A stretch of 64,000 nt of DNA, taken from the IMG/VR virus record IMGVR_UViG_3300009104_001476. One strand, given 5' to 3'. Positions 13,346 through 64,000 of this stretch are shown piece after piece. Each line of letters begins with the position of its first letter. Positions within the stretch are counted from its first letter, which is position 1. The DNA is from a virus. The position numbers and the translations under genes were made by a program. The notes below the pieces were generated by a model. That model had not been told where the DNA came from. It searched no databases and saw only the letters and a list, made by a program, of their open reading frames with translations.

Positions 13346-14116
13346 ATGTCAGATAAAATAATACCTCTTTTTAAGTCTCATTATAGCTTAGGTAAAAGCA
13401 TTTTGACCTTAGAAAAAGCAGGAGAGACTTTGGAAAATTATCCTGATTCGGTTTTCGATATAGCTAAGGAGAATAAACTAAAGAAGGTCTTTCTTGTTGA
13501 CGATAATATGTCAGGTTTTTTACAAGCTTATGCTAGCTCTAAAGAGGCGGGGGTAGACTTAATTTTTGGGTTGCGTCTAAGTGTTTGTTCTGACATGAAT
13601 CAGAAAGACGACGAGTCTAGAAACGAGACATGCAAATATATTATTTTTATAAAAAACTTGGAGGGCTACAAGAGGTTAGTTAGAATTTTCACGAAGGCTG
13701 CAAAAGATGGTTTTTATTATTACCCGAGGATAGACTTTCAGAATTTAAATAAGATGTGGAGCTCTAGAGACTTAGAGCTAGCAATTCCCTTTTACGATTC
13801 TTTTATTTTTAACAACGTGATGGGCTCGGCTTTTTGCATTCCGGATTTTAGTAAAATAAAACCAGTATTTTTCTTAGAAGAAAATGATTTGCCGTTTGAT
13901 GATTTAGTTAGGTCTCGTGTTGAACAGTATTGTCAGGACAAATACGAGACAGCAGAGACTAAGAGTATCTATTATAATAATAGAAAAGATTTTAAGCCTT
14001 ATTTAACTTTTAAATGTATTAGTAATCGAAGCGTTTTAGATAAACCTCAATTCGATCATATGTGCAGTGATGAGTTTTGTTTTGAAAGCTGGAAGGAAAA
14101 AAATGGTACCGTTTAA
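13346..14116 (+). CDS. Stand-alone PHP domain of DNA polymerase III alpha (N-terminal part of split DnaE)
   Basis: FKSHYSLGKSIL, LVDDNMSG, LIFGLRL, EGYKRLVRI, YYYPRIDF align with the DnaE PHP domain. Confidence 0.8.
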   Translation: MSDKIIPLFKSHYSLGKSILTLEKAGETLENYPDSVFDIAKENKLKKVFLVDDNMSGFLQAYASSKEAGVDLIFGLRLSVCSDMNQKDDESRNETCKYIIFIKNLEGYKRLVRIFTKAAKDGFYYYPRIDFQNLNKMWSSRDLELAIPFYDSFIFNNVMGSAFCIPDFSKIKPVFFLEENDLPFDDLVRSRVEQYCQDKYETAETKSIYYNNRKDFKPYLTFKCISNRSVLDKPQFDHMCSDEFCFESWKEKNGTV

Positions 14117-23589: not shown

Positions 23590-23666
23590 GCTCTTGTAGC
23601 TCAATTGGATAGAGCATCTGCCTTCTAAGCAGAGGGTTCTGGGTTCGAGTCCCAGCGAGAGTACCA
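23590..23666 (+). tRNA. tRNA-Arg (anticodon TCT) with encoded CCA
   Basis: Acceptor GCTCTTG/CGAGAGT, D arm, anticodon stem TCTGC-CTTCTAA-GCAGA, GGTTCGAGTCC T arm. Confidence 0.95.
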
Positions 23667-37552: not shown

Positions 37553-38110
37553 ATGAGGTTAGATCATATAGCTTACAGATCTAAAGATCGTAATAAGACC
37601 GCAGAATTCTTCGCGGACACCCTTGGTTATACAATAGGCACAGAGTTTCAGGTAAAGTTTGATGACGGAGGGAAAGCCGACTGTTTAGCCTTAGTTCCGC
37701 CAGAGAATAGAACTGAAGAAACTAACCTCTGGAGACTCGAGACCTATCTCTCCATGAACGAAATTGAAACGGAAAGTCCCGTAGAATATCATGCTCCACC
37801 TGAAATTTTTGTTAGTGACGGCCCTGAAGGGAGTATTGTGGGTGATTGGGTTGCCGATCGCGGTGGCGTTGGCGGTATTCATCACATCGCTTATCAAGTG
37901 GAAGATGTGGAAAGAACAATGAAGGAGTGGAAGGGCAAGGGGTATGCTGAATTTTATTCAGAAGAACCTATGACTTGTCCCGGCCTTACTCAAGTTTTTA
38001 CAAAACCATCCGAATTAACAGGAGTTATTTATGAGCTTATATCTAGAGAAGGTAAAGGGTTTTGCGAGCTTAATGTTAAAGGACTTATGCAAAGCACTAA
38101 AGGAGAGTAA
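37553..38110 (+). CDS. VOC/glyoxalase-superfamily metalloenzyme
   Basis: RLDHIAY, GIHHIAYQVEDV, QVFT, YELISR. Confidence 0.85.
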   Translation: MRLDHIAYRSKDRNKTAEFFADTLGYTIGTEFQVKFDDGGKADCLALVPPENRTEETNLWRLETYLSMNEIETESPVEYHAPPEIFVSDGPEGSIVGDWVADRGGVGGIHHIAYQVEDVERTMKEWKGKGYAEFYSEEPMTCPGLTQVFTKPSELTGVIYELISREGKGFCELNVKGLMQSTKGE

Positions 38111-38111
38111 C

Positions 38112-39641
38112 ATGAGAGATTTCGAAGGTAGAAATTACATAAACGGAGAGTGGCGAGCTACTTCCGAAATGTATACAAAAATTAATCCGTCAACGGGTAA
38201 AGCTCAAGGGGCGTTTCCGTCAAGCGGCCCAAGTGAAGTTTCTAAAGCTGTACTGTCTGCGAGAAAAGCTTTTAAAAAATGGAGAAAGGTTAGCAGGTTT
38301 GTTCGTTCTGATTATATGAACAAGGTCGCTCAAATTATTGAAAGAGATAAAGAAAAGTTGGCTAAAATCATATCTTTAGAAACGGGTAAAAATTATAATG
38401 AAAGCATCGCAGAGGTTAATGAGGCTTTGCATATGGCTCAATTTGCTTTCGGCTCTGGTCGTTATAGCCATGGAGAGGCAGTATCTTCAGAGATTGAAGA
38501 TAAAGATGCTTACATGCTTAGGAAGCCTAAAGGTGTAATAGCTATCGTAACTCCTTTCAACTTTCCTCTGGCAATAGGTATGTTTTGGAACGCTGCACCA
38601 GCATTGGTGGAAGGAAATACAATAGTAATTAAACCAAGTGAAGATGCTCCGATGTCAACTCAAGCGGCTGTTCAAATTTATGCGGAAGCTGGTATCCCAC
38701 GTGGAGTCATTAATTTGGTGCATGGTGACGGTACTACTGGCAACCTTTTGGTTCATGATGATGTTGATCATATTTGTTTTACTGGTAGTGCCGATGTCGG
38801 ACAGCATATTCGTAAAGTGGCTGCAGAGTCTTGGCATAAGACTACCTCTTGTGAACTAGGCAGCAAATCTGCTTGCATCATTTTTGATGACGTTGAATTT
38901 AAATTAAGCATGGAGGCTGCGATCGCAAGCGCTTTTAAATTATCAGGGCAACGGTGTGTCTCTTCTGGTAGAATGATAGTGCAAAGAACTATCTATAGCG
39001 AGTTCGCAAAAAGATTTGCGGAGGAGGCGGCAAAATTAAAGACAGGGAATCCATTCAAGTCCATGCTTGGCACCTCAGGCTGCCCAGATGGTATGGTTTG
39101 GGAAGAGCTTGTGGCTGACGAAGACGTTTATTATGGTCCGATTATAAATGAGCAAGGGTTTTCTAAAATTAGGAGCATGAATAAAATGGTTATAGATGAC
39201 CCAGAAGCCGAAGTCCTTTTAGCTCCAGCTTACACCGGAGACCATAAATCTTATTACTCTACCCCAATGGTATATAAAACCGAGTGGAGAGACGTAAAGT
39301 ATTTAAAAAATGAGGTGTTTGGTCCTCACGTGGCGATTATCCCTTTTGATACGATGGAAGATGCGATTCGTATTTATAACGATACAGATTACGGTCTTGC
39401 GGTTGGGATTTTAACTAACGATTTTAGAAAAGCGAGAGTTATGAGGGACGAATGTGACGCAGGTATGATCTATTGGAATGGCGGGTCAATCGCAGCGGAA
39501 TCTCACTTAGCTTTTGGAGGAGTTAAGAAGTCCGGAAACGGATTCCCAAGCGCGGCCAGAACTTTTAGAGCAGTTACTCATGAAATAAGCTGGACTGTGA
39601 ACCATGCAGATGCTCTAACTTTTCCTCAGGGGATGAAGTGA
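38112..39641 (+). CDS. Aldehyde dehydrogenase (candidate aminoadipate-semialdehyde / P5C-type)
   Basis: TPFNFP, KPSE, FTGS, ELGSK (Glu), GQRCVS (Cys), EVFGP, FGGVKKSG. Confidence 0.95.
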   Translation: MRDFEGRNYINGEWRATSEMYTKINPSTGKAQGAFPSSGPSEVSKAVLSARKAFKKWRKVSRFVRSDYMNKVAQIIERDKEKLAKIISLETGKNYNESIAEVNEALHMAQFAFGSGRYSHGEAVSSEIEDKDAYMLRKPKGVIAIVTPFNFPLAIGMFWNAAPALVEGNTIVIKPSEDAPMSTQAAVQIYAEAGIPRGVINLVHGDGTTGNLLVHDDVDHICFTGSADVGQHIRKVAAESWHKTTSCELGSKSACIIFDDVEFKLSMEAAIASAFKLSGQRCVSSGRMIVQRTIYSEFAKRFAEEAAKLKTGNPFKSMLGTSGCPDGMVWEELVADEDVYYGPIINEQGFSKIRSMNKMVIDDPEAEVLLAPAYTGDHKSYYSTPMVYKTEWRDVKYLKNEVFGPHVAIIPFDTMEDAIRIYNDTDYGLAVGILTNDFRKARVMRDECDAGMIYWNGGSIAAESHLAFGGVKKSGNGFPSAARTFRAVTHEISWTVNHADALTFPQGMK

Positions 39642-40087
39642 TGAATGGAAAGGGAGATAAACCAAGACCTATGAATTTCAAAAGGTATCATCAAAATTAT
39701 GATGCTATTTTTAGTAAAAAAAAAGGAAAGAAAATGGAATTCCATATAGCGACAAAAGGAACGAAAGAGGATCAAAAACCTGTCGTCCTCGTAGACATTG
39801 ACGAAACTATTTGTTTTTACTCTGGTAATCGTAGATACGACCTAGCTGAACCGAGTAAAGAAAACATCGGCAAAATAAACAAGATGTATGACGAAGGGTG
39901 GAAAGTTATATATTGGACAGCTAGAGGTTCCGTATCAAAAAAAGATTATTATCAATACACTTGGGATCAGTTGGAGTCTTGGGGCTGTAAGTTCCATGAC
40001 TTATCTACAGGTACAGGAGGAACACACCCAAAACCTAATTATGATTTAGTTATTGACGATAAAGCAAAAAGAATAGAGGAAATATAA
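39638..40087 (+). CDS. HAD-family phosphatase-like protein with a short N-terminal GKGDKPRP extension
   Basis: LVDIDETI, YWTAR, PKP.YDLVIDDKA. Confidence 0.75.
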   Translation: MMNGKGDKPRPMNFKRYHQNYDAIFSKKKGKKMEFHIATKGTKEDQKPVVLVDIDETICFYSGNRRYDLAEPSKENIGKINKMYDEGWKVIYWTARGSVSKKDYYQYTWDQLESWGCKFHDLSTGTGGTHPKPNYDLVIDDKAKRIEEI

Positions 40088-40089
40088 TT

Positions 40090-40194
40090 ATGGCTAACAA
40101 AGAAAAGAGAAAAAAAGAAAAAAAGAAACCTGCTAAAAAGACACCAGCGGAAAAAAGAAAAGAGAAGAGAGAAAAGAAAAGAAGAGGCAAGTAA
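40090..40194 (+). CDS. 34-aa very basic peptide (not in track)
   Basis: MANKEKRKKEKKKPAKKTPAEKRKEKREKKRRGK; its TAA abuts the next ATG. Confidence 0.6.
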   Translation: MANKEKRKKEKKKPAKKTPAEKRKEKREKKRRGK

Positions 40195-41289
40195 ATGAGA
40201 GCTTATGTTCTAGGAGTCGGCAGGATGGGAACAGCCATTGCTTGGGCGATGGATAAATTAGGTTTTGAAGTGACAGGTATGGACACTAACCCTGACGCCG
40301 CAAACAATATGACAGGCTCTTTTTTTGTTGTTGATGACGCGGATGATATTTGTAAAGGCATCGTAGCAAACGGTCCAAGGCCAGACATTGTTATTAGCAG
40401 CTTGCCTTACCACCAAACGGAAGTGGTAGGCAAGTGGTGCGTAGATAACGAAGTACGCTATTGCGACTTAGGCGGCAGAGTAGATGTCTCGAAAAATATT
40501 AATGATCACGCCGAGCAGTTTGCGACTCGACCAGTTTTCACAGATTTAGGCTTAGCTCCCGGCTGGGTAAATATATTAGCCGAAGAGGGATGCAGGAAAT
40601 TCCATGGCTCTGCTGAAGAAGTTAAAATGATGGTCGGGGGCTTACCCGACTATTTAGAGAGCTCGAATAATCCATTGCGTTACGCACTTACTTGGTCTGT
40701 TGATGGATTGATCAATGAATATAGAGACGATTGCCTTATCCTTGAAGACGGAGAAGTAAAAACTGTAAAAGGAATGTCTGGGGTAGAACAGATAGAGGGC
40801 GAAAAGTTTGGACCCATGGAGGCTTTTTATACAAGTGGTGGCGCGTCACATTCAATTCACGACATGCAACGAAGAGGAGTTAAGAATTGCTCCTATAAAA
40901 CCATAAGGTACAGGGGTCATGGAGATATGGTTAGATTTTTGATTAGAGATTGCGATCTAGACGATGGAGCGTTAACTAAAATTTTCCGAGAAGGTTGCGG
41001 TACGGTAGATAAAGACGAGGTGTTTATCGTAGCAGAAGTGAAGGGCGGGGATAAAACTTGGAGACAGGAGAAGGTGATCAAATCTGACGAACAATTTTCA
41101 GCCATGCAAAAAGCTACGGCGTTTTCCATTTCCTCTGTAGCAGCGATTATGGCTCAAGGAAAGCTAGAGGGGAACATGGAACAGCGTAGAGACTATTGGA
41201 CTCAGTACCCAGCGGCCTTATCTTATGATAATGTGCCTTTTAATGAATTTAATAATAACTTAGAAAGATTATTGACTAGTGCTTTATAA
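40195..41289 (+). CDS. Saccharopine dehydrogenase / lysine 6-dehydrogenase family oxidoreductase
   Basis: GVGRMG, YCDLGG, GLAPG, VGGLP, YALTWSVDGLINEY, EAFYTSGG, YKTIRY.GH. Confidence 0.9.
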   Translation: MRAYVLGVGRMGTAIAWAMDKLGFEVTGMDTNPDAANNMTGSFFVVDDADDICKGIVANGPRPDIVISSLPYHQTEVVGKWCVDNEVRYCDLGGRVDVSKNINDHAEQFATRPVFTDLGLAPGWVNILAEEGCRKFHGSAEEVKMMVGGLPDYLESSNNPLRYALTWSVDGLINEYRDDCLILEDGEVKTVKGMSGVEQIEGEKFGPMEAFYTSGGASHSIHDMQRRGVKNCSYKTIRYRGHGDMVRFLIRDCDLDDGALTKIFREGCGTVDKDEVFIVAEVKGGDKTWRQEKVIKSDEQFSAMQKATAFSISSVAAIMAQGKLEGNMEQRRDYWTQYPAALSYDNVPFNEFNNNLERLLTSAL

Positions 41290-55385: not shown

Positions 55386-56105
55386 ATGACTAAAGGTATT
55401 TTATATATTTGTTATGATGGAGGAGTTGAGGTAAAAGTACCTTATTTTAAAGAGGTCAAAAGAAGTATCTCTAGCTTGAGGAAGTATTGTAAATTGCCTA
55501 TTACTATTTATACAAACGGTAACGTAAAAAACGAGGATTTTAACCAAGGGCTTGAGGATGTTAACGTCTTGATAAGGAACGAAATCAAATCTAGTCTTCC
55601 TTCTGAGCCCAGATTAGACCCACAACGAAGGGGGTGGACTTTTCCTAAATTACATTGTTTTAAAAATCTACCTTACGACATGACTATCTTTGTTGATACA
55701 GATACGGTATTTTTTGATGATCCGTCTGGATTAATTTCCGAAGATTATGATTTAGCTATATGCCGAGATGTGTATTACAAGAAGCGAAGGAAGGCCGGTC
55801 AATTAACCAAACACTTTAATACCGGATTTTTTATAGCTCGAAGAGGAGAGCCTTTTAAGAAGCTCATAGACATGGCCTTAGACCTAGTTGGGAAAGAAGA
55901 GTTTTCTAAAGAAAGTAGGTATACGAGTGAAAACCATGATAATCGTGATCAGCCTCTTTTCAATTTAGCTCTAGACTTTATTCACGATATTAATATTAGA
56001 ATTTTACCTCAAAAATGGAACGTTAGAGGTCATATTTCAAGTTTTATAGACGAGCCTAAGATGATTCATGATAGGAGGCTTATCAGTTTTGGAGGGCTGT
56101 CATGA
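55386..56105 (+). CDS. GT8-like (GT-A) glycosyltransferase
   Basis: FVDTD (DxD), FNTGFF, DQPLFN, KWN. Confidence 0.75.
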   Translation: MTKGILYICYDGGVEVKVPYFKEVKRSISSLRKYCKLPITIYTNGNVKNEDFNQGLEDVNVLIRNEIKSSLPSEPRLDPQRRGWTFPKLHCFKNLPYDMTIFVDTDTVFFDDPSGLISEDYDLAICRDVYYKKRRKAGQLTKHFNTGFFIARRGEPFKKLIDMALDLVGKEEFSKESRYTSENHDNRDQPLFNLALDFIHDINIRILPQKWNVRGHISSFIDEPKMIHDRRLISFGGLS

Positions 56106-56281
56106 TAAAAGGGTGGAAAGAGGTGAGCGTGGATTGGAAAAAAAATATGCTTATCTTTATGAAAGTGATTGGTGAGGAGACGGGAGATTGGTGTCCTGAA
56201 CATTGGGAAGAATACGGTATAAGTAGGGAAGACGCCCAGATAATTTTAGACGAATATGAAAAGACGTTTCCAGAGGATTAA
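56102..56281 (+). CDS. Small hypothetical protein (59 aa, not in track)
   Basis: ATGA overlap with the upstream gene. Confidence 0.5.
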   Translation: MIKGWKEVSVDWKKNMLIFMKVIGEETGDWCPEHWEEYGISREDAQIILDEYEKTFPED

Positions 56282-56283
56282 AA

Positions 56284-58122
56284 ATGTGTGGAATAATTGG
56301 ATACATTGGAGAGGAGAAAGCCTCAGATAAGATATATTCGGGATTAGAAAAATTAGAATATAGAGGTTACGATTCTTGCGGCGTTGCGGTATTTAATAAA
56401 AATACTAATGAATTAGCTTGTTCCTACCACCTCTCTGCGCCTAGTGAAATCGAATCTTATAACGCTTTACCTGAATCTTTTTGCGGCATAGGTCATACAA
56501 GATGGGCGACACACGGCGCGGTCACCTTAACTAATACTCATCCTCATAAAAGCTGTGACGACACCGTATACCTTGTCCATAATGGGGTTATAGAAAATGC
56601 TGATCAAATAAAGAAGGGGCTAGAAAACGAGGAGTGTGAATTTTATAGCGAGACAGACACAGAAGCTCTCGTTAATTTAATTGCATTTTGTTATAACGAC
56701 TCTAGCGATAAAGAGCCCGTTTTAGCAATTAACCAAGCTTTGAAAGAGGTCGAAGGGACTTACGGTCTTGCTATTATGTTTAAAGATCACCCTAGCGTCA
56801 TCTTTGCGGTTAGAAGAAGCTCTCCTTTAGTGTTGGGACTCAAAGAGGAAGAAACTTATATCTCTAGCGATACGAACGCTTTGCCTTCTGATACGGAGAA
56901 GGTTGTATATTTGGAAGATGGAGACGTAGCGGAGGTTAAAAAAGACAGCTTTAAGATTTATGATAGAAATAGCAAACAATACGATAGTAGGCGCACCGCT
57001 ATAAAAATAAAAATACCAAAAAGACACCATCAGCTTGGGAGTTACGAAACATTTTTAGAAAAAGAGATTTATGAGCAACCAGACTCGATAAGGGAGACAA
57101 CGAGAGGTCGGTTCAATAAGGATTTTGATTCTGTGATTTTAGGGGGCATAGATACCGAAAGGGACATTAAGAGGGTTCTGTTTATAGGTTGCGGCACCGC
57201 TTACCACGCTGGCCTTTTGGGTAAATACTTTATAGAAAACATAGCTAAGGTTCCCGCTAGTGTAGAGATCGCTTCAGAGTATAAATATAAGAATAACCCC
57301 ACGGAAGACGGGACTCTTGTGGTTGTGATAAGCCAGTCTGGTGAAACCATAGATACTCTAGCGGCACTGAAGGAGGCTCAAGATAGGGGGCTTGATACAA
57401 TAGCTATAACAAATACCGTCATGAGCAGTATAGCTCGTCAGGTTGAGGAGGGAATCTACCAACGTGTCGGCCCTGAGGTTTCAGTGGCTTCAACTAAGGC
57501 TTTTACGTCTCAAATAACTCTAGCTTTGATGCTGGCTATTTTAATTGGGCGTAAGAATGGGATGAGTTTATTGGAGTCAAAAAGGATGATTGGGTATTTA
57601 AGGAGGTTACCGAGCTTGATAGATCAAACTTTAAGTATGACCAAAGAAAAGGCGCGTAAGCTTGCGGTTGGACATTCTTTATTAAAAGAGATGACCTTTT
57701 TGGGTAGGCAGTATATGTACCCAATAGCTTTAGAAGCGGCGTTAAAAACGAGAGAGCTTGCCTATGTAAATACTATCGGTTATACGTCTGGAGAAATGAA
57801 ACACGGGCCGTTAGCCTCTATAAGTAGCCATTCTTTTGTTTGGGTTTTAGCTCCCCAAGAAGGATTGAAAGAAAAAAATATAACGACGATTAAAGAACTT
57901 AGCTCTAGAGGGGTAAACCATATAACCGTGGTAAAGCAGGAGGGGCAAGATTTCCCAAAAGATTGTCATGATAATTTTATAAATATACCTAAAGCTCCAG
58001 AGTTTCTTTTACCCGTGTTGGCGACTATCCCCATCCAGTTGTTTGCTTTAGAGATGGCCAAAGTCAGAAATTTAAATGTAGACAAGCCGAGGCATTTAGC
58101 GAAATCTGTTACAGTAGAATGA
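56284..58122 (+). CDS. glmS: Glutamine--fructose-6-phosphate aminotransferase
   Basis: MCGIIG, GHTRWATHG, HNG, SQSGET, STKAF, GEMKHGP, KPR.LAKSVTVE. Confidence 0.96.
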   Translation: MCGIIGYIGEEKASDKIYSGLEKLEYRGYDSCGVAVFNKNTNELACSYHLSAPSEIESYNALPESFCGIGHTRWATHGAVTLTNTHPHKSCDDTVYLVHNGVIENADQIKKGLENEECEFYSETDTEALVNLIAFCYNDSSDKEPVLAINQALKEVEGTYGLAIMFKDHPSVIFAVRRSSPLVLGLKEEETYISSDTNALPSDTEKVVYLEDGDVAEVKKDSFKIYDRNSKQYDSRRTAIKIKIPKRHHQLGSYETFLEKEIYEQPDSIRETTRGRFNKDFDSVILGGIDTERDIKRVLFIGCGTAYHAGLLGKYFIENIAKVPASVEIASEYKYKNNPTEDGTLVVVISQSGETIDTLAALKEAQDRGLDTIAITNTVMSSIARQVEEGIYQRVGPEVSVASTKAFTSQITLALMLAILIGRKNGMSLLESKRMIGYLRRLPSLIDQTLSMTKEKARKLAVGHSLLKEMTFLGRQYMYPIALEAALKTRELAYVNTIGYTSGEMKHGPLASISSHSFVWVLAPQEGLKEKNITTIKELSSRGVNHITVVKQEGQDFPKDCHDNFINIPKAPEFLLPVLATIPIQLFALEMAKVRNLNVDKPRHLAKSVTVE

Positions 58123-58703
58123 GCACTCCTAGACAATACATAGAAGAAGTTGAGCGACTTATAAATGAGTGGCACGTTCCCTTACATGAAAATAAAACAA
58201 CTTTGACGGAAGCTCTGAAATCTATGGAGGGTTTTAAATTAGAGGCGGAAGATGTCCCTTTGATTATCAAATTGGTAGAAAACCCCAAGTACGACATCGG
58301 TTTATTCGCAGGTAATGTTTCTCTTCATAATCATGACTGTATTCATTTACTTCTTGGTAGAGGTCTTAGAGTGAAAGATGAGGCTTTCGTAATAGGTTAT
58401 ACGATGGGAAGCACAAAGAAGATGTGGAGATGGAGAAGAAATTTATATATGTTCTGTGCCAAATACTTATTTCCGAAAGGTTATAGATTCGGAGAGGAAG
58501 AAAGGTTTGTATTTAACGTAGGAGTGATGTTAGGGGAGAGTTGTGACACGGATCTTTCCGAAGTCGATTTTAAGGCTTTAGGAAAATATAGAATAGAGAA
58601 AGTTAGGAGATTACTCGGTATAGATAAAGAATTATTAAAAAGTTATTATGAAATTGAAAAAAAATGTTTCTTAAATAGCGAGGAGAGTCAAAGACTAACA
58701 TAA
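58119..58703 (+). CDS. Coq4-like protein (HDxxH-x11-E)
   Basis: HDCIH-LLLGRGLRVKD-E. Confidence 0.5.
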   Translation: MSTPRQYIEEVERLINEWHVPLHENKTTLTEALKSMEGFKLEAEDVPLIIKLVENPKYDIGLFAGNVSLHNHDCIHLLLGRGLRVKDEAFVIGYTMGSTKKMWRWRRNLYMFCAKYLFPKGYRFGEEERFVFNVGVMLGESCDTDLSEVDFKALGKYRIEKVRRLLGIDKELLKSYYEIEKKCFLNSEESQRLT

Positions 58704-58963
58704 TGGAAGATTACAAAGAAATTTGGGAAAAGTATCATGAAAAGATTATCGAAAGGCTTGGATGGGTTGGGGCGTTTCTTGTGGTATTGGGCTATTACCT
58801 TAATGCTCAACATTATCTATGTTGTTGGCTTGTATGGACGGTGGGTAATGCGTTTATTGCGGGGTATTCGATCCACAAAAAAGCATACCCAACGGCGTTA
58901 ATGTCTTTAATTATCGCTATAATGAATATATATGGATACATAGAATGGAAGGAGGCTTTATGA
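58703..58963 (+). CDS. Small three-TM membrane protein (PnuC/SemiSWEET-like)
   Basis: LGWVG..LVVLGY, WLVWTVGN, NIYG. Confidence 0.55.
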   Translation: MEDYKEIWEKYHEKIIERLGWVGAFLVVLGYYLNAQHYLCCWLVWTVGNAFIAGYSIHKKAYPTALMSLIIAIMNIYGYIEWKEAL

Positions 58964-59157
58964 AAAACACAAAAAAGAGAATGCACCGAACGTCAGACCC
59001 GACTTGGCATACCTACACATATAGTGGAGAGACAAAAAGCCCATTTGACATAGAAATGATTAAATATTATAATGAATCCGAAGGCAGGGATCAAATATTG
59101 TTCCTTTATAAAGATAAAACCGATGGGAAAATTTTTAAATATAGAATATTACAGTGA
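58960..59157 (+). CDS. Hypothetical protein
   Basis: AGGAGG upstream; ORF. Confidence 0.5.
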   Translation: MKNTKKRMHRTSDPTWHTYTYSGETKSPFDIEMIKYYNESEGRDQILFLYKDKTDGKIFKYRILQ

Positions 59158-60257
59158 TCGATGAAGATAAAAAAATACTTAATGACTTTTTTGAGTCCTT
59201 GGTAGTAGGAAAGGAGACTTTTATAGGTTATCCCGTTAATACCCTTTTCGATTATTCTGAATTATTTAAATTTTTATCTATACCCCTGAACAACGTAGGC
59301 GACCCCTTTTGTTCTAGTTATTATGGCCTCGATTCAAGACTGATGGAAAGAGAGGTGTTGGATTGGTTTGCCAAACTCCACAACGCTCCATTAGATAATT
59401 ATTGGGGTTACGTTACAAATGGAGGTACGGAAGGTAATATGTATGGTCTTTATCTCGCTAGGGAACTGTATCCCAAAGGGGTTGTTTATTATTCGCAAGA
59501 CACGCATTATAGCGTGAGTAAAAATATTCGTATGTTAAACATGGAACACGTTATGATAAAGTCTCGTCGTAGCGGAGAAATGGATTACCAAGATTTACAT
59601 GAAATGATTTCAACTTGGCGTTCGGCTCCTCCTGTTATTTTCGCTAACGTGGGGACAACAATGAGAGAGGGTTTCGATGATATAAATGAAATAAAAAAAG
59701 TTTTAAGAGCTTTAGCCATCCCAGAGTATTATATTCATGCGGATGCGGCATTAGGAGGAATGACATTACCATTTATAGAAAATTCCCCTGCTTTTGATTT
59801 TACGACAGGCGTACAAAGTATGTCTATTAGTGGTCATAAATTTATAGGCTCTCCTTTGCCGTGCGGAGTTGTTTTAGCTTTAAAAAGTAATGTAGGTAGA
59901 GTAGCGAGGGCGGTAGAGTATGTAGGGTCTTTGGATAGCACGGTTAGTGGCTCTAGAAATGGCTTTACTCCCATACTTTTATGGTACGCGATAAAGAAAT
60001 TTGGATTTAATGGCTTCAAGAAAATGGTTAGAGGTTGCGTCAGAACAGCAGAATTAGCCGTTAGAAAGATGAACGACAGCAATATAAAGGCTTGGAAAAA
60101 CGACTATGCTATAACGGTAGTTTTCCCTAGACCCGCTGAAAATGTGGTAAAAAAGTGGAAATTAGCGGTACAAGACGATATTGCTCATATTATTTGTATG
60201 CCTCAAGTTAATGGGGATGTAATTAATAATGTAATAAAAGACATAAGAGAAAGGTGA
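59154..60257 (+). CDS. PLP-dependent group II decarboxylase, histidine/serine decarboxylase clade
   Basis: WGYVTNGGTEGN, YSQDTHYS, HADAALGG, SGHK (PLP Lys), GSRNG. Confidence 0.9.
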   Translation: MIDEDKKILNDFFESLVVGKETFIGYPVNTLFDYSELFKFLSIPLNNVGDPFCSSYYGLDSRLMEREVLDWFAKLHNAPLDNYWGYVTNGGTEGNMYGLYLARELYPKGVVYYSQDTHYSVSKNIRMLNMEHVMIKSRRSGEMDYQDLHEMISTWRSAPPVIFANVGTTMREGFDDINEIKKVLRALAIPEYYIHADAALGGMTLPFIENSPAFDFTTGVQSMSISGHKFIGSPLPCGVVLALKSNVGRVARAVEYVGSLDSTVSGSRNGFTPILLWYAIKKFGFNGFKKMVRGCVRTAELAVRKMNDSNIKAWKNDYAITVVFPRPAENVVKKWKLAVQDDIAHIICMPQVNGDVINNVIKDIRER

Positions 60258-60263
60258 TGTTTT

Positions 60264-60428
60264 ATGGAAGAAAAATGGGTGGCAATTGTTTATAATGGAG
60301 GAGACAAAGTAGGTTCTCGAATCTTTGAGGGCGAGGAGTCACAAACCCGACCAGAAGCGAGGCGTTGGGTCATCTCCCAATTTGGTGAGGGTACGGACTG
60401 GTCTTTTCATCATGTAATAGAGCGTTAA
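60264..60428 (+). CDS. Small hypothetical protein (54 aa, not in track)
   Basis: ORF filling the gap between decarboxylase and ProDH. Confidence 0.5.
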   Translation: MEEKWVAIVYNGGDKVGSRIFEGEESQTRPEARRWVISQFGEGTDWSFHHVIER

Positions 60429-60442
60429 TTGGAATATGAAGA

Positions 60443-61285
60443 ATGAATTTTTTATATCCATTAGCGAAAAGGTTTATTGCTGGCTATGATTTGGAATCTG
60501 CCAGAGATAATATTCAACGCCTAATGGATGAAGGCTACGAGGTTTCAATAGATTACGTCGGTGAGAATAGTAAAAGTCAGGAGGACTGTTTGAAAGCTTT
60601 TAAGCAGTATGTCAAAATTATAAAATTTTATAAAAATAAAAAAATAAACATCTCCATTAAGCCTTCTCAATTAGGAATAAACATCCACCCAATACTTTCT
60701 TATTCTCACATTTCCAAATTAGCTGAACTAGCTAAAAAACATAACCATACAATCCGTTTAGATATGGAAGATTCAAAAGTTACAGAGCTTACGAGGAATC
60801 TTGCTGTTTGTTTAAATAGGAGGTTTGGAAATGTGGGAGTAGCGATACAAGCTAATTTACATAGAAGTAATAAAGACATTGATAATCTAATAAAGGAAGG
60901 GGTTTCTGTTCGTTTAGTTAAGGGGGCATATAAAGAAAATGAGAAAGTAGCTTATCAAAATTATTTTGATATAACTGGCTCTTTTTTTGATTATGCTGCT
61001 AGGTTGTATTCAAGAAAGGCAAATAAACCAGCACTCGCCACCCATGATGAAGAGTTGTTAGGGGATGTAGAGGAACTTATACCCCATCCTGATTATTTTG
61101 AATATGAGTTTCTTTATGGAGTTCGTAGAGATTTACAAAAAAGCTTGAAAGATAAAGGGTATACGGTTAGAGTATATATACCATTTGGAAAGAATTGGCT
61201 ACCTTATACGTTGAGGAGACTTAAAGAGTGGAAGAACTTAAAGTTTGTAATAAAAAATATACTGTATGAGATATTTAAGCGATGA
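60443..61285 (+). CDS. Monofunctional proline dehydrogenase
   Basis: RLDME, QANL.RS, RLVKGAYKE, ATHD, EFLYGVR, VRVYIPFG, YTLRRL.E. Confidence 0.92.
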   Translation: MNFLYPLAKRFIAGYDLESARDNIQRLMDEGYEVSIDYVGENSKSQEDCLKAFKQYVKIIKFYKNKKINISIKPSQLGINIHPILSYSHISKLAELAKKHNHTIRLDMEDSKVTELTRNLAVCLNRRFGNVGVAIQANLHRSNKDIDNLIKEGVSVRLVKGAYKENEKVAYQNYFDITGSFFDYAARLYSRKANKPALATHDEELLGDVEELIPHPDYFEYEFLYGVRRDLQKSLKDKGYTVRVYIPFGKNWLPYTLRRLKEWKNLKFVIKNILYEIFKR

Positions 61286-62180
61286 AGAAGTTTCCGGCTT
61301 ATTGGAAAATAAATGGAGTCAAATAATAAACTCTATCGAATCTGCTTTTCTTGACCCATCTGTAGACATGGTTCCTAAAATTTACCTTAAGGGTGAAGGT
61401 GGAGATTTTAGAGCTATGCCAGCGGCACTTGGCAAATATGCGGCTATCAAGTGGATTGGAGTGTTCCCAGACAACTATCAGATTCCAATACCCACAACGA
61501 ATGGTTCGCTTATTTTGAGTGACAGGGAAACAGGAGTGCCTCTAATGGGTATGGACTGTACCACTCTTACAGCATATAGAACTGCGGCTACTTCAGCGAT
61601 AGCCGCCAAGTATTGCTCTCCTGAAGCTGAGAACTTTGCGATCATAGGTTGTGGGTTACAAGCCAAATATCATATTGAGGCTTATGAAACTATCTTTAGT
61701 CACATGAAGATGGATGTTGAGCTTTACGATAAAAATGAAAAAATACAAAAGGATGTATTTAATTGGTTAGGTAGCGAAAATCTTTGTAGGGCTTGGGGCA
61801 GAAATAAATCAGTAAAGGAAGCGGTTAAATATGCAGACGTTATTACTACTCTTACACCATCTACATCACCTTATTTGGACATCCATGATGTTAAAAGTGA
61901 TTGTCATATCAACGCTGTCGGTGCGGATGCAGTCGGGAAAAGAGAATTGATGACTAACATCATTGATGGGTCATCGTTTATTGTCTGTGACGATGAAGAA
62001 CAAGCTTTGCATTCTGGAGAGCTACAATATAACACATGGCCGAACTTACAACCGCAGTCTATTAATTCTCTAATTAAGAACAAAAAAATCCCAAATAAAG
62101 GAGTATCAGTGTTTGATTCCACGGGAGTAGCTATTGAAGATGTAGCTATCGCAGCATTAATCTACAAATTATCGGAGTAA
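61266..62180 (+). CDS. Ornithine cyclodeaminase / mu-crystallin family
   Basis: AMPA, KWIGVFPDN, TAYRTAA, GCGLQA..H, HINAVGAD, FDSTG.AIED. Confidence 0.92.
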   Translation: MRYLSDEEVSGLLENKWSQIINSIESAFLDPSVDMVPKIYLKGEGGDFRAMPAALGKYAAIKWIGVFPDNYQIPIPTTNGSLILSDRETGVPLMGMDCTTLTAYRTAATSAIAAKYCSPEAENFAIIGCGLQAKYHIEAYETIFSHMKMDVELYDKNEKIQKDVFNWLGSENLCRAWGRNKSVKEAVKYADVITTLTPSTSPYLDIHDVKSDCHINAVGADAVGKRELMTNIIDGSSFIVCDDEEQALHSGELQYNTWPNLQPQSINSLIKNKKIPNKGVSVFDSTGVAIEDVAIAALIYKLSE

Positions 62181-62288
62181 TATGAACGAGGCAGATAGAT
62201 TAAAATGGAAAATTACCAGACTCAATTCTATAATAAGAGATTTAGAATCAGAGAATAAAAAATTAAAAAAAGGGTTTGGGGTGAGAAG

Positions 62289-62699
62289 GTGTTGCAAACG
62301 TACATATTCGATACGCAAGCTGGACAAGACTTTTACAAAAGACTAGATGATCTACATGATGAATATGTATACCATTTATTATTAAGCGGTCTAGCAGAAA
62401 AAGGATTAGATTTAGAGTCTATAAAAATGACAAAGAATCCTGACGTAAGCGAAAAGTATTGCAAAAGAGTAGTAGGTGGGCTGGTAAACGTAAAACCCCA
62501 AATAATAGTAAAGCTAACCGAAGACAAGAAACCTAGACTGGAGTGTATATTTACAGTCCTTAATGATAACGAGTACGTCAGGAATGAGTTGTTTATGATA
62601 CAGAACGTGATGGATTGGCCGCAATTAGGAAAATATAGTTGCCAAATATGGTATTTAGGCGAGACTGCCCTAGAAGAAGTGAGGAAGAAGTGGGAATGA
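62289..62699 (+). CDS. Hypothetical protein
   Basis: ORF track. Confidence 0.55.
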   Translation: MLQTYIFDTQAGQDFYKRLDDLHDEYVYHLLLSGLAEKGLDLESIKMTKNPDVSEKYCKRVVGGLVNVKPQIIVKLTEDKKPRLECIFTVLNDNEYVRNELFMIQNVMDWPQLGKYSCQIWYLGETALEEVRKKWE

Positions 62700-62896
62700 A
62701 AGCATCGAGAAACGGACAAAGACCTTGTTATACTCCTCCTTTTTCAAGACGTAAAGATTTTTGTAGGAAAGTCAGAGAGACAGAGAAGCAAATACAGCGA
62801 TGTAAAGATGAAGGGGCTTGGAAGAAGGCGAGTCACCTTCAATGGGTTCTAAGAAATGTTTGGTGGGGCTATAAAAGATACCAGTATGAAAATTGA
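62696..62896 (+). CDS. Hypothetical protein
   Basis: ATG overlap with the previous gene. Confidence 0.45.
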   Translation: MKASRNGQRPCYTPPFSRRKDFCRKVRETEKQIQRCKDEGAWKKASHLQWVLRNVWWGYKRYQYEN

Positions 62897-63155
62897 AGAA
62901 GACTTAAACGATTACGGTAAATATTTAGAATATGATTTTGATAACAGAATCAGTTATGATGAAGACTCAGACTCTATGTATATCTATGTAGCTCCACCTC
63001 AAGGTCAGGTTGGCGCGGTGATGGTTTACGCAGACAAGCAGCATAATATGGTGTCAATAGATACCGATGAAGTAAATACCCAAGTAGGGATAGAGATAGT
63101 CGGAGTATCGAGGTTAATGAAAAAATTTAATTTAAATAAAATAAAAAATAATTAA
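62886..63155 (+). CDS. DUF2283-like protein
   Basis: YDEDSDSMYI ... ID.D....VGIEIVGVS. Confidence 0.65.
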   Translation: MKIEEDLNDYGKYLEYDFDNRISYDEDSDSMYIYVAPPQGQVGAVMVYADKQHNMVSIDTDEVNTQVGIEIVGVSRLMKKFNLNKIKNN

Positions 63156-63159
63156 CATC

Positions 63160-63684
63160 ATGGAAGACCAACCTTATTTGTTCCCAGAGTTTGCTCGTAG
63201 GGCAAAGATGCTTCAAACGATCCTGAAAGAACAGGCTATGGACATTTCTAAAATTAATATTCATTTTGATGGAGAATCAGAAATGCACATCAAATCTAAT
63301 AGAAAAGTGAAACAGCTTCAATCATTGGAGGAAAAAAGGTTTTATGCTTTTAAAGGAGATGAAGAAAATCCAATGCCGTATATTAAAAATATCAAAACGG
63401 GGAAAGTTCTAAAGATTGCTTATACTAGGGATAAATACCCCTGTATTACTTTAGGGCATCGTGACACTCTGACGACAACCCCAGTTCATAGATTACTTGC
63501 TATGTGTTTTATAGAGAACCCTGACCCTAGTAAACTTATGGAGGTTGACCATTTAAATGGAAATAAGAGAGATTGGAGGTTAGAGAATTTAGAGTGGGTT
63601 AGCTCTAGTGAAAATAACAAAAGGAGGAAGATTCTTAAAAAGCAGCAAGAGGACTCCCAAACTCCACCAAATTATCATATATGA
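63160..63684 (+). CDS. HNH homing endonuclease (HNH_3 type)
   Basis: VHRLLAMCFIENP, VDHLNGNK.D..LENLEWV..SEN. Confidence 0.88.
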   Translation: MEDQPYLFPEFARRAKMLQTILKEQAMDISKINIHFDGESEMHIKSNRKVKQLQSLEEKRFYAFKGDEENPMPYIKNIKTGKVLKIAYTRDKYPCITLGHRDTLTTTPVHRLLAMCFIENPDPSKLMEVDHLNGNKRDWRLENLEWVSSSENNKRRKILKKQQEDSQTPPNYHI

Positions 63685-63932
63685 AAAAGTATTGGGATCA
63701 TAGCACTAAACCCTCTACTTATGTAATTGTGATTGACGGGGAGGAGGCGTTTCGTGGTAATTATGCTGACGGTATGATGTATGTTAAATCTTTAGAAAAT
63801 GACGGTATGATAAGTTTCAAAGATGATTATCTTCCCGAAATGAATCGTATATCAAAGATAACTTACCGTGCGCTCCATGTCGAAAAAGAATTGAGACGAG
63901 AAATAATTAAATTAAAAAAAGAGCTTAAATAA
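63681..63932 (+). CDS. Hypothetical protein
   Basis: ORF track. Confidence 0.5.
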   Translation: MKKYWDHSTKPSTYVIVIDGEEAFRGNYADGMMYVKSLENDGMISFKDDYLPEMNRISKITYRALHVEKELRREIIKLKKELK

Positions 63933-63951
63933 CGGGAGTGTAAAAGGGCTT

Positions 63952-64000
63952 ATGGAAGACAAAATAAAAAAAATTTTAGAAAAGTATGCAGACCTTCAAA
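63952..64000 (+). CDS. Hypothetical protein, 3' partial
   Basis: MEDKIKKILEKYADLQ..., preceded by GTGTAA. Confidence 0.45.
   Translation, partial: MEDKIKKILEKYADLQ

What the first reader, a model, noticed from the sequence alone, without database searches (positions are those of the whole stretch)
60443..62180. Coupled proline dehydrogenase and ornithine cyclodeaminase genes
Seen: overlapping, motif-intact ProDH and OCD/mu-crystallin genes. Known: OCD converts ornithine to proline and ammonia (homologs convert lysine to pipecolate or reduce cyclic imines); ProDH oxidises proline to P5C and passes electrons to quinone; an ALDH finishes the route to glutamate. Inference: with the ALDH at 38112 this could form a full ornithine-to-glutamate route, or a Pro/P5C (or pipecolate/P6C) redox cycle feeding respiration during infection and supplying N for GlmS.
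Basis: partly seen in the sequence, partly recalled or inferred. Interest (0 to 1): 0.7.

Follow-up and report, generated by a model that had tools for sequence, protein, structure and literature searches.

The report
Phage proline dehydrogenase with AlaDH-type partner
The pair therefore looks like an amino-acid-burning module, not an ornithine-to-proline step.

Summary
ORF 60443-61285 is a complete minimal proline dehydrogenase (ProDH, PF01619). ORF 61266-62180 is a complete OCD/mu-crystallin-family enzyme (PF02423). They overlap by 20 nt, behind a perfect sigma-70 promoter at 59045 and a histidine decarboxylase gene.

The second enzyme is not cyclodeaminase-type. It has Arg49 where true cyclodeaminases, including a natural arginase-OCD fusion, have the Glu that holds the distal amino group. 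At all six signature positions it matches Archaeoglobus alanine dehydrogenase, which is its best sequence and fold match (1OMO, TM 0.91).

Both genes belong to large clades in uncultured marine phage contigs of up to about 200 kb. They are translationally coupled in both gene orders in relatives, but each also occurs without the other. One complete relative has the OCD-family gene and no ProDH.

The ALDH at 38031 lies in every large related record and 1.6-4 kb from ProDH in some. By homology it is a generic ALDH, not a recognisable P5C or P6C dehydrogenase.

Best reading: a viral module that oxidises free amino acids for reducing power, ammonium and carbon. No substrate was tested. First readers flagged the same pair in at least three other genomes of this scan; no follow-up was shown for them.

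The parts
59045..59073 (+). Perfect sigma-70-type promoter (TTGACA-17-TATAAT), probable start of the HDC-orf54-ProDH-OCD-family transcription unit
   Evidence: 12 of 12 matches, the only perfect site in 55500-64000. No + strand terminator-like site was found after 59868 in that scan, so none lies between the ProDH start and the end of the OCD-family gene. Function is inferred, not shown.
59154..60257 (+). PLP-dependent histidine decarboxylase (group II), first gene of the unit
   Evidence: NCBIfam NF002748 at 490 bits, cut-off 305. PF00282. In relatives it is directly coupled to ProDH by an ATGA overlap.
60264..60428 (+). Small conserved ORF (54 aa), function unknown
   Evidence: A 50%-identical homologue was seen in L008 and L016, two loci cut from the same contig, and 62% in L136. 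No family hit.
60443..61285 (+). Minimal monofunctional FAD proline dehydrogenase (280 aa). It starts at helix alphaC of the Thermus enzyme.
   Evidence: PF01619; best PDB matches 2EKG/2G37 at 137 bits; all proline- and flavin-binding residues invariant.
61266..62180 (+). NAD-dependent OCD/mu-crystallin-family enzyme of the archaeal alanine-dehydrogenase (AF1665) type (304 aa). Its start overlaps the ProDH end by 20 nt.
37553..41289 (+). Separate operon of VOC (37553-38110), ALDH (38031-39641), a 149-aa ORF and a saccharopine-DH-like gene (40195-41289). The ALDH is a candidate but unproven downstream enzyme.
58119..58963 (+). Coq4-motif protein (58119-58703) and an 86-aa PnuC-C-terminus-like membrane protein (58703-58963). 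This pair lies near ProDH in many relatives.

Best explanation
The two genes form a co-expressed auxiliary metabolic module of a large uncultured marine phage.

Gene 1 is a minimal monofunctional flavoenzyme. It oxidises L-proline to P5C and, on established family knowledge, passes the electrons through FAD to the host quinone pool.

Gene 2 is an NAD(H)-dependent member of the OCD/mu-crystallin family. It belongs to the Archaeoglobus alanine-dehydrogenase subtype, not to the cyclodeaminases. Its most likely reaction is the reversible oxidative deamination of L-alanine, or of another small 2-amino acid, to the 2-oxo acid, ammonium and NADH.

Together with the upstream histidine decarboxylase, the unit would convert the infected cell's free amino acids into reducing power (QH2, NADH), ammonium, and pyruvate or glutamate precursors.

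Shown here: gene integrity, family and subtype assignment, conservation, and coupling. Inferred: substrates, reaction direction, electron acceptor and the benefit to the phage.
For: ProDH:
- PF01619 and the Thermus ProDH model match residues 6-274. Best PDB matches are the monofunctional enzymes 2EKG/2G37 and 4H6Q.
- K73, R258 and R259 (proline carboxylate), the E41-R258 gate pair, RLVKGAY and ATH are invariant in 26 phage homologues.
- The protein begins at helix alphaC. The equivalent deltaAB truncation of the Thermus enzyme is a highly active tetramer (PMC6017737).

Second enzyme:
- A. fulgidus AlaDH 1OMO scores 170 bits, against 87 for mu-crystallin and 79 for P. putida OCD.
- TIGR02371 ala_DH_arch is the top NCBIfam model.
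- The AF2 model (pLDDT 93) fits 1OMO best, at TM 0.91 and 36% identity.
- Ungapped alignment puts K38, R49, K62, R105, D221 and K225 on AlaDH K41, R52, K65, R108, D219 and K223.
- Watanabe 2014 equates the OCD triad E56-D228-K232 with AlaDH R52-D219-K223 and reports that AF1665 is not an OCD (PMC4141209).
- Among 134 family representatives, 70 carry the triad R-D-K at positions 49, 221 and 225, including every full-length hit above the first exception (P0265, about 152 bits). All have Lys at positions 38 and 62 and Arg at 105. Eight carry the E-D-K triad. One of those eight is an OCD domain fused to an arginase, with Glu exactly at the phage Arg49 position.

Physiological precedent: Haloferax volcanii grown on alanine co-induces an AF1665-type ala gene, a ProDH and a P5C-dehydrogenase-type ALDH (PMC6801745).

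Coupling:
- 20-nt overlap in the window.
- ProDH>OCD overlaps of about 11-17 nt, or gaps of 8-11 nt, and OCD>ProDH TAATG or ATGA junctions, in independent contigs.
- 9 of 30 well-flanked metagenome ProDH loci have the OCD-family gene directly adjacent, and 4 more have it within 700 bp.
Against: - No enzyme assay exists for any phage member.
- Identity to AF1665 is only about 36-40%, and the TIGR02371 score (184) is far below its equivalog cut-off (409).
- In the T. litoralis enzyme, introducing R-D-K abolished AlaDH activity but kept Pyr2C reductase activity. The triad alone therefore does not prove alanine as the substrate.
- Tight coupling to ProDH in two independent gene orders is more simply explained by a shared metabolite (proline) than by a shared purpose.
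- Each gene also occurs without the other: G031, a complete genome, has the OCD-family gene and no ProDH; 14 of 30 well-flanked ProDH loci have no OCD-family gene. The partnership is therefore facultative.
Confidence: 0.5

Rival explanations
1. Imino-acid reductase feeding ProDH. The OCD-family enzyme reduces delta1-pyrroline-2-carboxylate (or piperideine-2-carboxylate) to L-proline (or pipecolate), as LhpI does. ProDH then oxidises the product. The pair would channel hydroxyproline-, D-proline- or D-ornithine-derived Pyr2C into P5C and glutamate.
For: - T. litoralis LhpI lies in the subfamily next to AF1665, is clustered with proline dehydrogenase genes, and is the third-best fold match (6T3E).
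- An R-D-K version of that enzyme keeps Pyr2C reductase activity.
- A shared metabolite would explain the translational coupling in both gene orders.
Against: - Native LhpI has L-V-A at the triad, not R-D-K. 6T3E scores 83 bits against 170 for AlaDH.
- The Pyr2C reductase NCBIfam models are far below cut-off.
- No hit to a Pyr2C-producing enzyme (hydroxyproline dehydratase or D-amino-acid dehydrogenase) appeared among the window ORFs or the relatives' neighbouring genes that were scanned. This was not a full annotation.
- Phage clades with the OCD-family gene but no ProDH are common.
Confidence: 0.17
2. The enzyme is a true ornithine (or lysine) cyclodeaminase. Ornithine goes to proline, then P5C (ProDH), then glutamate (the ALDH). 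This would be a split analogue of the cyanobacterial AgrE-PutA arginine catabolic pathway.
For: - Coupling to ProDH.
- The ALDH is present in all 11 large related records and lies 1.6-4 kb from ProDH(-OCD) in L141, L142, L150, L155 and L184.
- Clade II relatives encode an arginine-dihydrolase-like protein (NF052232 254 bits, ArgZ 248 bits) beside the ALDH, so ornithine could be supplied.
- The AgrE-PutA pathway exists in cyanobacteria (PMC8262935).
Against: - Arg, not Glu, sits at the position that binds the distal amino group. It is invariant in the phage clades and the whole subfamily, whereas the arginase-fused OCD and P. putida OCD have Glu.
- AF1665, with the same signature, is reported not to be an OCD.
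- The OCD NCBIfam model scores 133 against a cut-off of 350.
- The phages with the arginine-dihydrolase-like gene lack ProDH and carry an aminotransferase instead.
- The ALDH shows no specific P5CDH signal.
Confidence: 0.13
3. No functional link. The two genes are independent cassettes that happen to be neighbours in a hypervariable accessory region. Alternatively, the OCD-family enzyme acts on another substrate altogether, for example by opine-type reductive condensation or on an acidic amino acid.
For: - Gene order in this region is shuffled among relatives. ProDH is also found directly coupled to HDC, or followed by unrelated ORFs (L136, L179, L213, L214).
- 14 of 30 well-flanked ProDH loci have no OCD-family gene.
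- The family includes tauropine/strombine and N-methylalanine dehydrogenases.
Against: Start/stop overlaps in two different orders in independent contigs argue for selected co-expression. In the subclade that contains the window's gene, 10 of 11 OCD-family genes have ProDH on the same contig.
Confidence: 0.2

Closest known systems
Archaeoglobus fulgidus alanine dehydrogenase AF1665 (PDB 1OMO/1VLL; TIGR02371), and H. volcanii HVO_0454
   Same: Same family and subtype. It is the best sequence match (170 bits) and the best fold match (TM 0.91). The six-residue signature K-R-K-R-D-K and the NAD-type Asp are identical.
   Different: Only about 36-40% identical and below the equivalog cut-off. The phage sequences form their own long-branched clades. 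The gene is encoded by a phage and coupled to ProDH. None of 80 cellular homologue loci has a ProDH within 5 kb.
Monofunctional proline dehydrogenase of Thermus thermophilus / Deinococcus radiodurans (2G37, 4H6Q)
   Same: Same beta8-alpha8 flavoenzyme family. All substrate, gate and flavin residues are conserved, and helices alphaC and alpha8 are retained.
   Different: Lacks the N-terminal helices alphaA and alphaB, so it is a natural 'deltaAB' form of 280 aa. About 30% identity. Phage-borne.
Pseudomonas putida ornithine cyclodeaminase (1X7D) and Streptomyces lysine cyclodeaminase (5GZJ/5YU0)
   Same: Same fold and NAD binding. K62, R105, D221 and K225 are equivalent to K69, R112, D228 and K232.
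   Different: Arg replaces the Glu (E56/E63) that positions the distal amino group, and Lys replaces R45. About 25% identity. The equivalog model is far below cut-off.
Thermococcus litoralis LhpI (Pyr2C reductase, 6T3E) clustered with proline dehydrogenase genes
   Same: A member of the neighbouring OCD-family subfamily sits next to proline dehydrogenase genes in a proline/hydroxyproline catabolic cluster.
   Different: Its triad is L-V-A. Its partner ProDH is the heterooligomeric archaeal type, not PF01619. A hydroxyproline dehydratase is present there and was not seen here.
Cyanobacterial AgrE (arginine dihydrolase/ornithine cyclodeaminase) plus PutA pathway
   Same: At the pathway level, arginine/ornithine goes to proline and then glutamate, with release of ammonium. 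Related phages carry an ArgZ/AgrE-N-domain-like gene beside the ALDH.
   Different: No arginine dihydrolase gene is in this phage record or in G009. ProDH and the ALDH are separate proteins. Whether the AgrE cyclodeaminase domain belongs to this family could not be checked (paper not held).

Membership tests
Proline dehydrogenase (PF01619, monofunctional type) | Profile match above the curated threshold over the whole catalytic barrel | tested here: met
   PF01619 at 109 bits against a cut-off of 27, covering profile positions 2-270 of 278. The NF045947 Thermus-type model scores 180 bits, below its strict equivalog cut-off of 500.
Proline dehydrogenase (PF01619, monofunctional type) | Proline-carboxylate binders Lys99, Arg288, Arg289; the Glu65-Arg288 gate; and flavin-site motifs (Thermus numbering) | tested here: met
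   K73, R258, R259, E41, R157-LVKGAY and T200-H201 are all invariant in 26 homologues.
Proline dehydrogenase (PF01619, monofunctional type) | Helix alphaC packing on alpha8, which the Thermus enzyme needs for activity | tested here: met
   The N-terminus LAKRFIAG aligns with LVRRYVAG. A8, F11 and I12 fall at V32, Y35 and V36.
Proline dehydrogenase (PF01619, monofunctional type) | FAD-dependent oxidation of L-proline with a quinone as acceptor | not testable with these tools
   Needs an enzyme assay.
Ornithine/lysine cyclodeaminase (EC 4.3.1.12 / 4.3.1.28) | OCD/mu-crystallin fold with bound NAD | tested here: met
   PF02423 at 209 bits. The fold matches 1X7D at TM 0.87.
Ornithine/lysine cyclodeaminase (EC 4.3.1.12 / 4.3.1.28) | Glu (E56 in P. 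putida, E63 in S. pristinaespiralis) that holds the distal amino group; cyclisation triad E-D-K | tested here: not met
   R49 occupies this position and is invariant. The triad is R-D-K. The arginase-fused OCD P0368 has Glu here.
Ornithine/lysine cyclodeaminase (EC 4.3.1.12 / 4.3.1.28) | NCBIfam equivalog score | tested here: not met
   NF005762 scores 132.6 against a cut-off of 350. NF006141 scores 121 against 408.
Archaeal-type alanine dehydrogenase (AF1665; TIGR02371) | Active-site set K41, R52, K65, R108, D219, K223 and the NAD-specific Asp | tested here: met
   K38, R49, K62, R105, D221, K225 and D155, by ungapped alignment to 1OMO.
Archaeal-type alanine dehydrogenase (AF1665; TIGR02371) | Equivalog-level profile score | tested here: not met
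   TIGR02371 is the best model at 184 bits, but its cut-off is 409. The protein is therefore filed as AF1665-type, not as a proven AlaDH.
Archaeal-type alanine dehydrogenase (AF1665; TIGR02371) | NAD-dependent interconversion of alanine and pyruvate plus ammonium | not testable with these tools
   Needs an enzyme assay.
Pyr2C reductase of the T. litoralis LhpI type | Triad L52-V224-A228, and closest relationship to LhpI | tested here: not met
   The triad is R-D-K. 6T3E scores 83 bits against 170 for 1OMO.
P5C / glutamate-semialdehyde dehydrogenase (for the ALDH at 38031-39641) | Specific profile or closest solved relatives of the ALDH4/PutA/RocA type | tested here: not met
   PRK03137 scores 284 against a cut-off of 648. 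TIGR01237 scores 259 against 660. Six other ALDH families score higher. No entry named as a P5C or P6C dehydrogenase is among the 60 best PDB hits.

The most novel reading that the evidence does not exclude
This phage group carries a modular viral pathway from arginine and proline to glutamate, built round one highly conserved ALDH acting as glutamate-semialdehyde dehydrogenase. Interchangeable feeder cassettes would supply it: ProDH (with or without the OCD-family enzyme) in one lineage, and an arginine dihydrolase plus an omega-aminotransferase in another. The AF1665-type dehydrogenase would act as the terminal deaminating, NADH-yielding step. The Coq4-motif protein and the neighbouring ExbB/ExbD-like channel genes would tie the electrons and protons to the host membrane. 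In effect, the phage would re-plumb host nitrogen and respiratory metabolism with its own enzymes.
Probability: 0.2. Interest if true: 0.7.

Novelty: new variant of a known kind. Interest (0 to 1): 0.5.

Why it matters
Auxiliary metabolic genes of marine phages are best known for photosynthesis, carbon, phosphate, sulfur and nucleotide metabolism (my own knowledge). A respiratory-chain-linked amino-acid dehydrogenase is unusual.

- Protein searches of 50,697 deposited phage records found seven ProDH matches at 26-33% identity. The one I inspected lies among bacterial genes, and the others looked like bacterial contigs from their names and annotation only.
- Full-text searches found one paper holding ProDH together with 'auxiliary metabolic' and 'viral'. 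It concerns eukaryotic giant viruses.

Yet the two genes head clades of more than 100 sequence clusters each, at 61-99% identity (ProDH) and 65-83% identity (OCD family). They include Tara Oceans and other marine metagenome sequences on contigs up to about 200 kb.

If the enzymes work as inferred, infected cells would burn proline and alanine under viral control. That would bear on nitrogen regeneration and energy budgets during infection in the ocean.

The result also corrects a tempting annotation. Records name the enzyme either 'ornithine cyclodeaminase' or 'alanine dehydrogenase'. The Arg/Glu signature, backed by a natural arginase fusion, gives a simple test to tell them apart.

Tried and rejected
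- blastn of 59000-63000 against deposited phages found no match.
- Protein searches of the same collection found only distant hits. The Microcystis phage MaAM05 ProDH lies among fliM, ompA, murJ and pcnB genes, so I did not count it as a phage gene. The others I judged bacterial-looking from their names and annotation only.
- A single-sequence scan of viral contigs for the OCD-family gene found nothing. A profile scan then found 41 loci.
Neighbourhoods therefore came from viral, genome and metagenome locus scans instead.
- The protein atlas gave only generic 'OCD family' clusters.
- I looked for a ProDH next to cellular AF1665-type genes: none in 80 loci. The pairing was therefore not inherited as a cellular cassette.
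- I looked for a ProDH-OCD fusion among long representatives: none. This turned up an arginase-OCD fusion and a tandem OCD instead.
- A Pro/P5C redox cycle was rejected because this family reduces 2-imino acids (established knowledge).
- Lysine cyclodeaminase was rejected for the same missing Glu.
- A PDB profile search for the Coq4-motif protein found nothing. Its fold model is weak (pLDDT 68) and its Coq4-like fold hits are not significant.
- The original AF1665 paper and the AgrE structure paper are not held. Their content is cited only through PMC4141209 and PMC8262935.
- The host was not identified. The DnaE-type polymerase has only distant relatives (about 25-32% identity) among deposited phages.
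Full report
**What is there**

The window is part of a 117.5-kb IMG/VR virus record, estimated 69% complete. It has a DnaB-type helicase, a DnaE-type polymerase, many sugar-metabolism genes, and almost all genes on the + strand.

ORF 60443-61285 (280 aa) and ORF 61266-62180 (304 aa) overlap by 20 nt. Upstream lie a 54-aa ORF and a histidine decarboxylase gene that passes its NCBIfam equivalog cut-off (490 bits against 305). Before these sits the only perfect TTGACA-17-TATAAT site of the region, at 59045-59073. No + strand terminator-like site follows 59868 in that scan. The four genes therefore probably form one transcription unit. This is inferred, not shown.

**Gene 1 is a proline dehydrogenase**

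- It matches PF01619 (E 4e-31) and the Thermus-type ProDH model over residues 6-274.
- Its best solved relatives are the monofunctional enzymes of Thermus (2EKG/2G37, 137 bits) and Deinococcus (4H6Q).
- Every residue that the literature names is present and invariant in 26 phage homologues. These cover proline binding (Lys99, Arg288, Arg289), the Glu65-Arg288 gate and the flavin pocket. In the phage protein they are K73, R258, R259, E41, R157-LVKGAY163 and T200-H201.
- The protein starts at helix alphaC. In the Thermus enzyme, removing helices A and B gives a highly active tetramer, whereas removing helix C as well nearly abolishes activity (PMC6017737). The phage enzyme is thus a natural minimal but plausibly active form.

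**Gene 2 is in the OCD/mu-crystallin family but is not cyclodeaminase-type**

PF02423 matches at E 1e-61. The ranking of characterised relatives is one-sided:

| Relative | Score |
|---|---|
| A. fulgidus alanine dehydrogenase (1OMO) | 170 bits |
| mu-crystallin | 87 bits |
| T. litoralis Pyr2C reductase | 83 bits |
| P. putida OCD | 79 bits |

. The top NCBIfam model is ala_DH_arch at 184 bits. That is below its equivalog cut-off of 409.

An AlphaFold2 model (pLDDT 93) fits 1OMO best, at TM 0.91 and 36% identity. Its identity to 6T3E and 1X7D is 25%.

Ungapped alignment places phage K38, R49, K62 and R105 on AlaDH K41, R52, K65 and R108, and phage D221 and K225 on D219 and K223. Watanabe et al. 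(PMC4141209) state that the OCD cyclisation triad E56-D228-K232 corresponds to R52-D219-K223 in the AlaDH and to L52-V224-A228 in the Pyr2C reductase. They also state that Glu56 binds the delta-amino group of ornithine, and that AF1665 is an AlaDH and not an OCD. Lysine cyclodeaminase likewise uses Glu63 (PMC5935100).

I tested the signature on 134 family representatives:

- 70 carry the triad R-D-K at positions 49, 221 and 225, including every full-length hit above the first exception (P0265, about 152 bits). All 70 have Lys at 38 and 62 and Arg at 105.
- 8 carry the E-D-K triad.
- One of those eight is an OCD domain fused to an arginase. This fusion strongly suggests ornithine as its substrate, and it has Glu exactly where the phage protein has Arg49.

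The cyclodeaminase membership test therefore fails at a defining residue. The AF1665-type test is met at the residue level but not at the equivalog-score level.

One caution remains. In the T. litoralis scaffold, an engineered R-D-K triad abolished AlaDH activity and kept Pyr2C reductase activity. The substrate therefore remains an inference.

**Distribution and linkage**

Both genes head large clades: more than 100 clusters each at 61-99% identity (ProDH) and 65-83% identity (OCD family). They include Tara Oceans and other marine metagenome sequences on contigs up to about 200 kb.

The OCD-family tree shows two long-branched, fully supported phage clades beside the cellular AF1665-type proteins. 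The cellular proteins come from Archaeoglobales, Halobacteria, Chloroflexota, Myxococcota and others, and are at most 40% identical. None of 80 cellular loci has a ProDH within 5 kb.

ProDH association is confined to one 11-member subclade of phage clade I. In that subclade, 10 of 11 members have ProDH on the same contig.

Junctions occur in both gene orders:

- ProDH>OCD with overlaps of about 11-17 nt, or gaps of 8-11 nt.
- OCD>ProDH with TAATG or ATGA overlaps, or gaps of 20-32 nt.

Among 30 metagenome ProDH loci with at least 1.2 kb on both sides, the OCD-family gene was positioned as follows:

| Position relative to ProDH | Loci |
|---|---|
| Directly adjacent | 9 |
| Within 700 bp | 4 |
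| Farther away | 3 |
| Absent | 14 |

G031, a complete 161-kb relative, has the OCD-family gene but no ProDH. ProDH is also directly coupled to the histidine decarboxylase gene by an ATGA overlap in L179, L213 and L214. In L136 it follows HDC-orf54 with no OCD-family gene after it.

Co-expression of ProDH and its partner is thus repeatedly selected but not obligatory.

**The ALDH**

The gene at 38031-39641 sits in a VOC-ALDH-149-aa-saccharopine-DH-like operon, 22 kb upstream.

- It scores best against alpha-ketoglutaric semialdehyde, betaine aldehyde, aminobutyraldehyde and succinate semialdehyde dehydrogenase models.
- The P5CDH models rank 7th and 15th, and none reaches its cut-off.
- The 60 best PDB hits are generic ALDH1/2, GAPN, SSADH and BADH entries.

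Yet it is the most conserved of these genes, at 73-93% identity among the 120 best clusters. It is present in all 11 related records that are at least 40% complete. It lies only 1.6-4 kb from ProDH(-OCD) in L141, L142, L150, L155 and L184.

In clade II phages the operon reads VOC, ALDH, arginine-dihydrolase-like (NF052232 254 bits; ArgZ 248 bits), lysine-6-transaminase-like (TIGR03251 484 bits against 521), a 279-aa ORF (its family's representative in another phage has UDP-glucose-dehydrogenase-like N-terminal and central domains) and saccharopine-DH-like. Those records lack ProDH.

This is compatible with the ALDH oxidising glutamate semialdehyde, or aminoadipate semialdehyde, supplied by alternative feeders. 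It does not show it.

**Most likely mechanism**

ProDH oxidises proline and reduces the quinone pool. The AF1665-type enzyme interconverts alanine (or a similar small amino acid) and its 2-oxo acid, with NAD(H) and ammonium. The decarboxylase adds a third amino-acid-consuming step.

A cellular precedent exists. Haloferax volcanii growing on alanine as its nitrogen source co-induces an AF1665-type ala gene, a ProDH and a P5CDH-type ALDH (PMC6801745).

I put about 0.5 on this reading.

**Novelty**

The enzymes belong to known families. The new element is their presence, minimal form and coupling as a widespread module of uncultured marine phages.

- In deposited phage records I found no convincing phage homologue. 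The one match I inspected is bacterial-looking, and the rest I judged from their names and annotation only.
- Full-text searches found no paper describing a phage ProDH or a phage AF1665-type enzyme.
- First readers of this scan flagged the same pair in at least three other genomes, read as 'ornithine cyclodeaminase' or as the OCD family. No follow-up was shown for them.

Noticed in passing
window 58119-58963: The 194-aa protein has an invariant H72-D73-x-x-H76-x11-E88 pattern, which matches the Coq4 zinc motif as I recall it. PF05019 (Coq4) is the top weak Pfam hit in 2 of 10 family members (E 0.017). The three best Foldseek hits of a low-confidence model (pLDDT 68) are the cyanobacterial Coq4 homologues 3MSQ and 6E12, but none is significant. 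It is always followed by a 75-88-aa membrane protein that resembles the C-terminus of PnuC. The pair lies near ProDH in many relatives. A quinone-related helper for ProDH is a lead only.
   Followed up: partly
window 59154-60257; L179, L213, L214, L136: The histidine decarboxylase gene is directly coupled to ProDH by an ATGA overlap in three relatives. In L136 it precedes orf54-ProDH with no OCD-family gene after it. HDC itself is sporadic: it was found in 2 of the 26 related records searched (G009, G010), besides the window's own record.
   Followed up: partly
L135:7511-13412 (+) and L134:7017-11844 (-): Clade II relatives carry a tightly coupled six-gene operon: VOC, ALDH, arginine-dihydrolase-like (ArgZ/AgrE N-domain type), lysine-6-transaminase-like, a 279-aa ORF (its family's representative in another phage has UDP-glucose-dehydrogenase-like domains) and saccharopine-DH-like. 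In L135 the last gene ends at 13412; in L134 its position was not determined. The records with this operon have no ProDH. This looks like a viral arginine/ornithine or lysine catabolic unit.
   Followed up: partly
P0368 (metagenomic protein, 644 aa): A natural fusion of an OCD-family domain (signature R-E-K-R-D-K) with an arginase domain. It is useful as an internal standard for true cyclodeaminases.
   Followed up: partly
L216 (MW495066.1, 'Microcystis phage MaAM05', 98265-109062): The annotated ProDH of this deposited 'phage' lies among fliM, ompA, pomA, murJ, bioD and pcnB genes. This part of the record looks like bacterial chromosome.
   Followed up: no
L043:11314-12369 (-) and L044:7344-8327 (-): Relatives encode a Volactin-family actin-like protein (PF25216, E 5e-74) and a class I fructose-bisphosphate aldolase, between the ALDH and the saccharopine-DH-like gene.
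   Followed up: no
window 38031-39641: The longest ALDH ORF (536 aa) overlaps the VOC gene by 80 nt. Most homologues are 505-516 aa, so the true start is probably about 25 codons downstream.
   Followed up: no
window 23590-23666: A single tRNA-Arg (anticodon TCT) gene.
   Followed up: no
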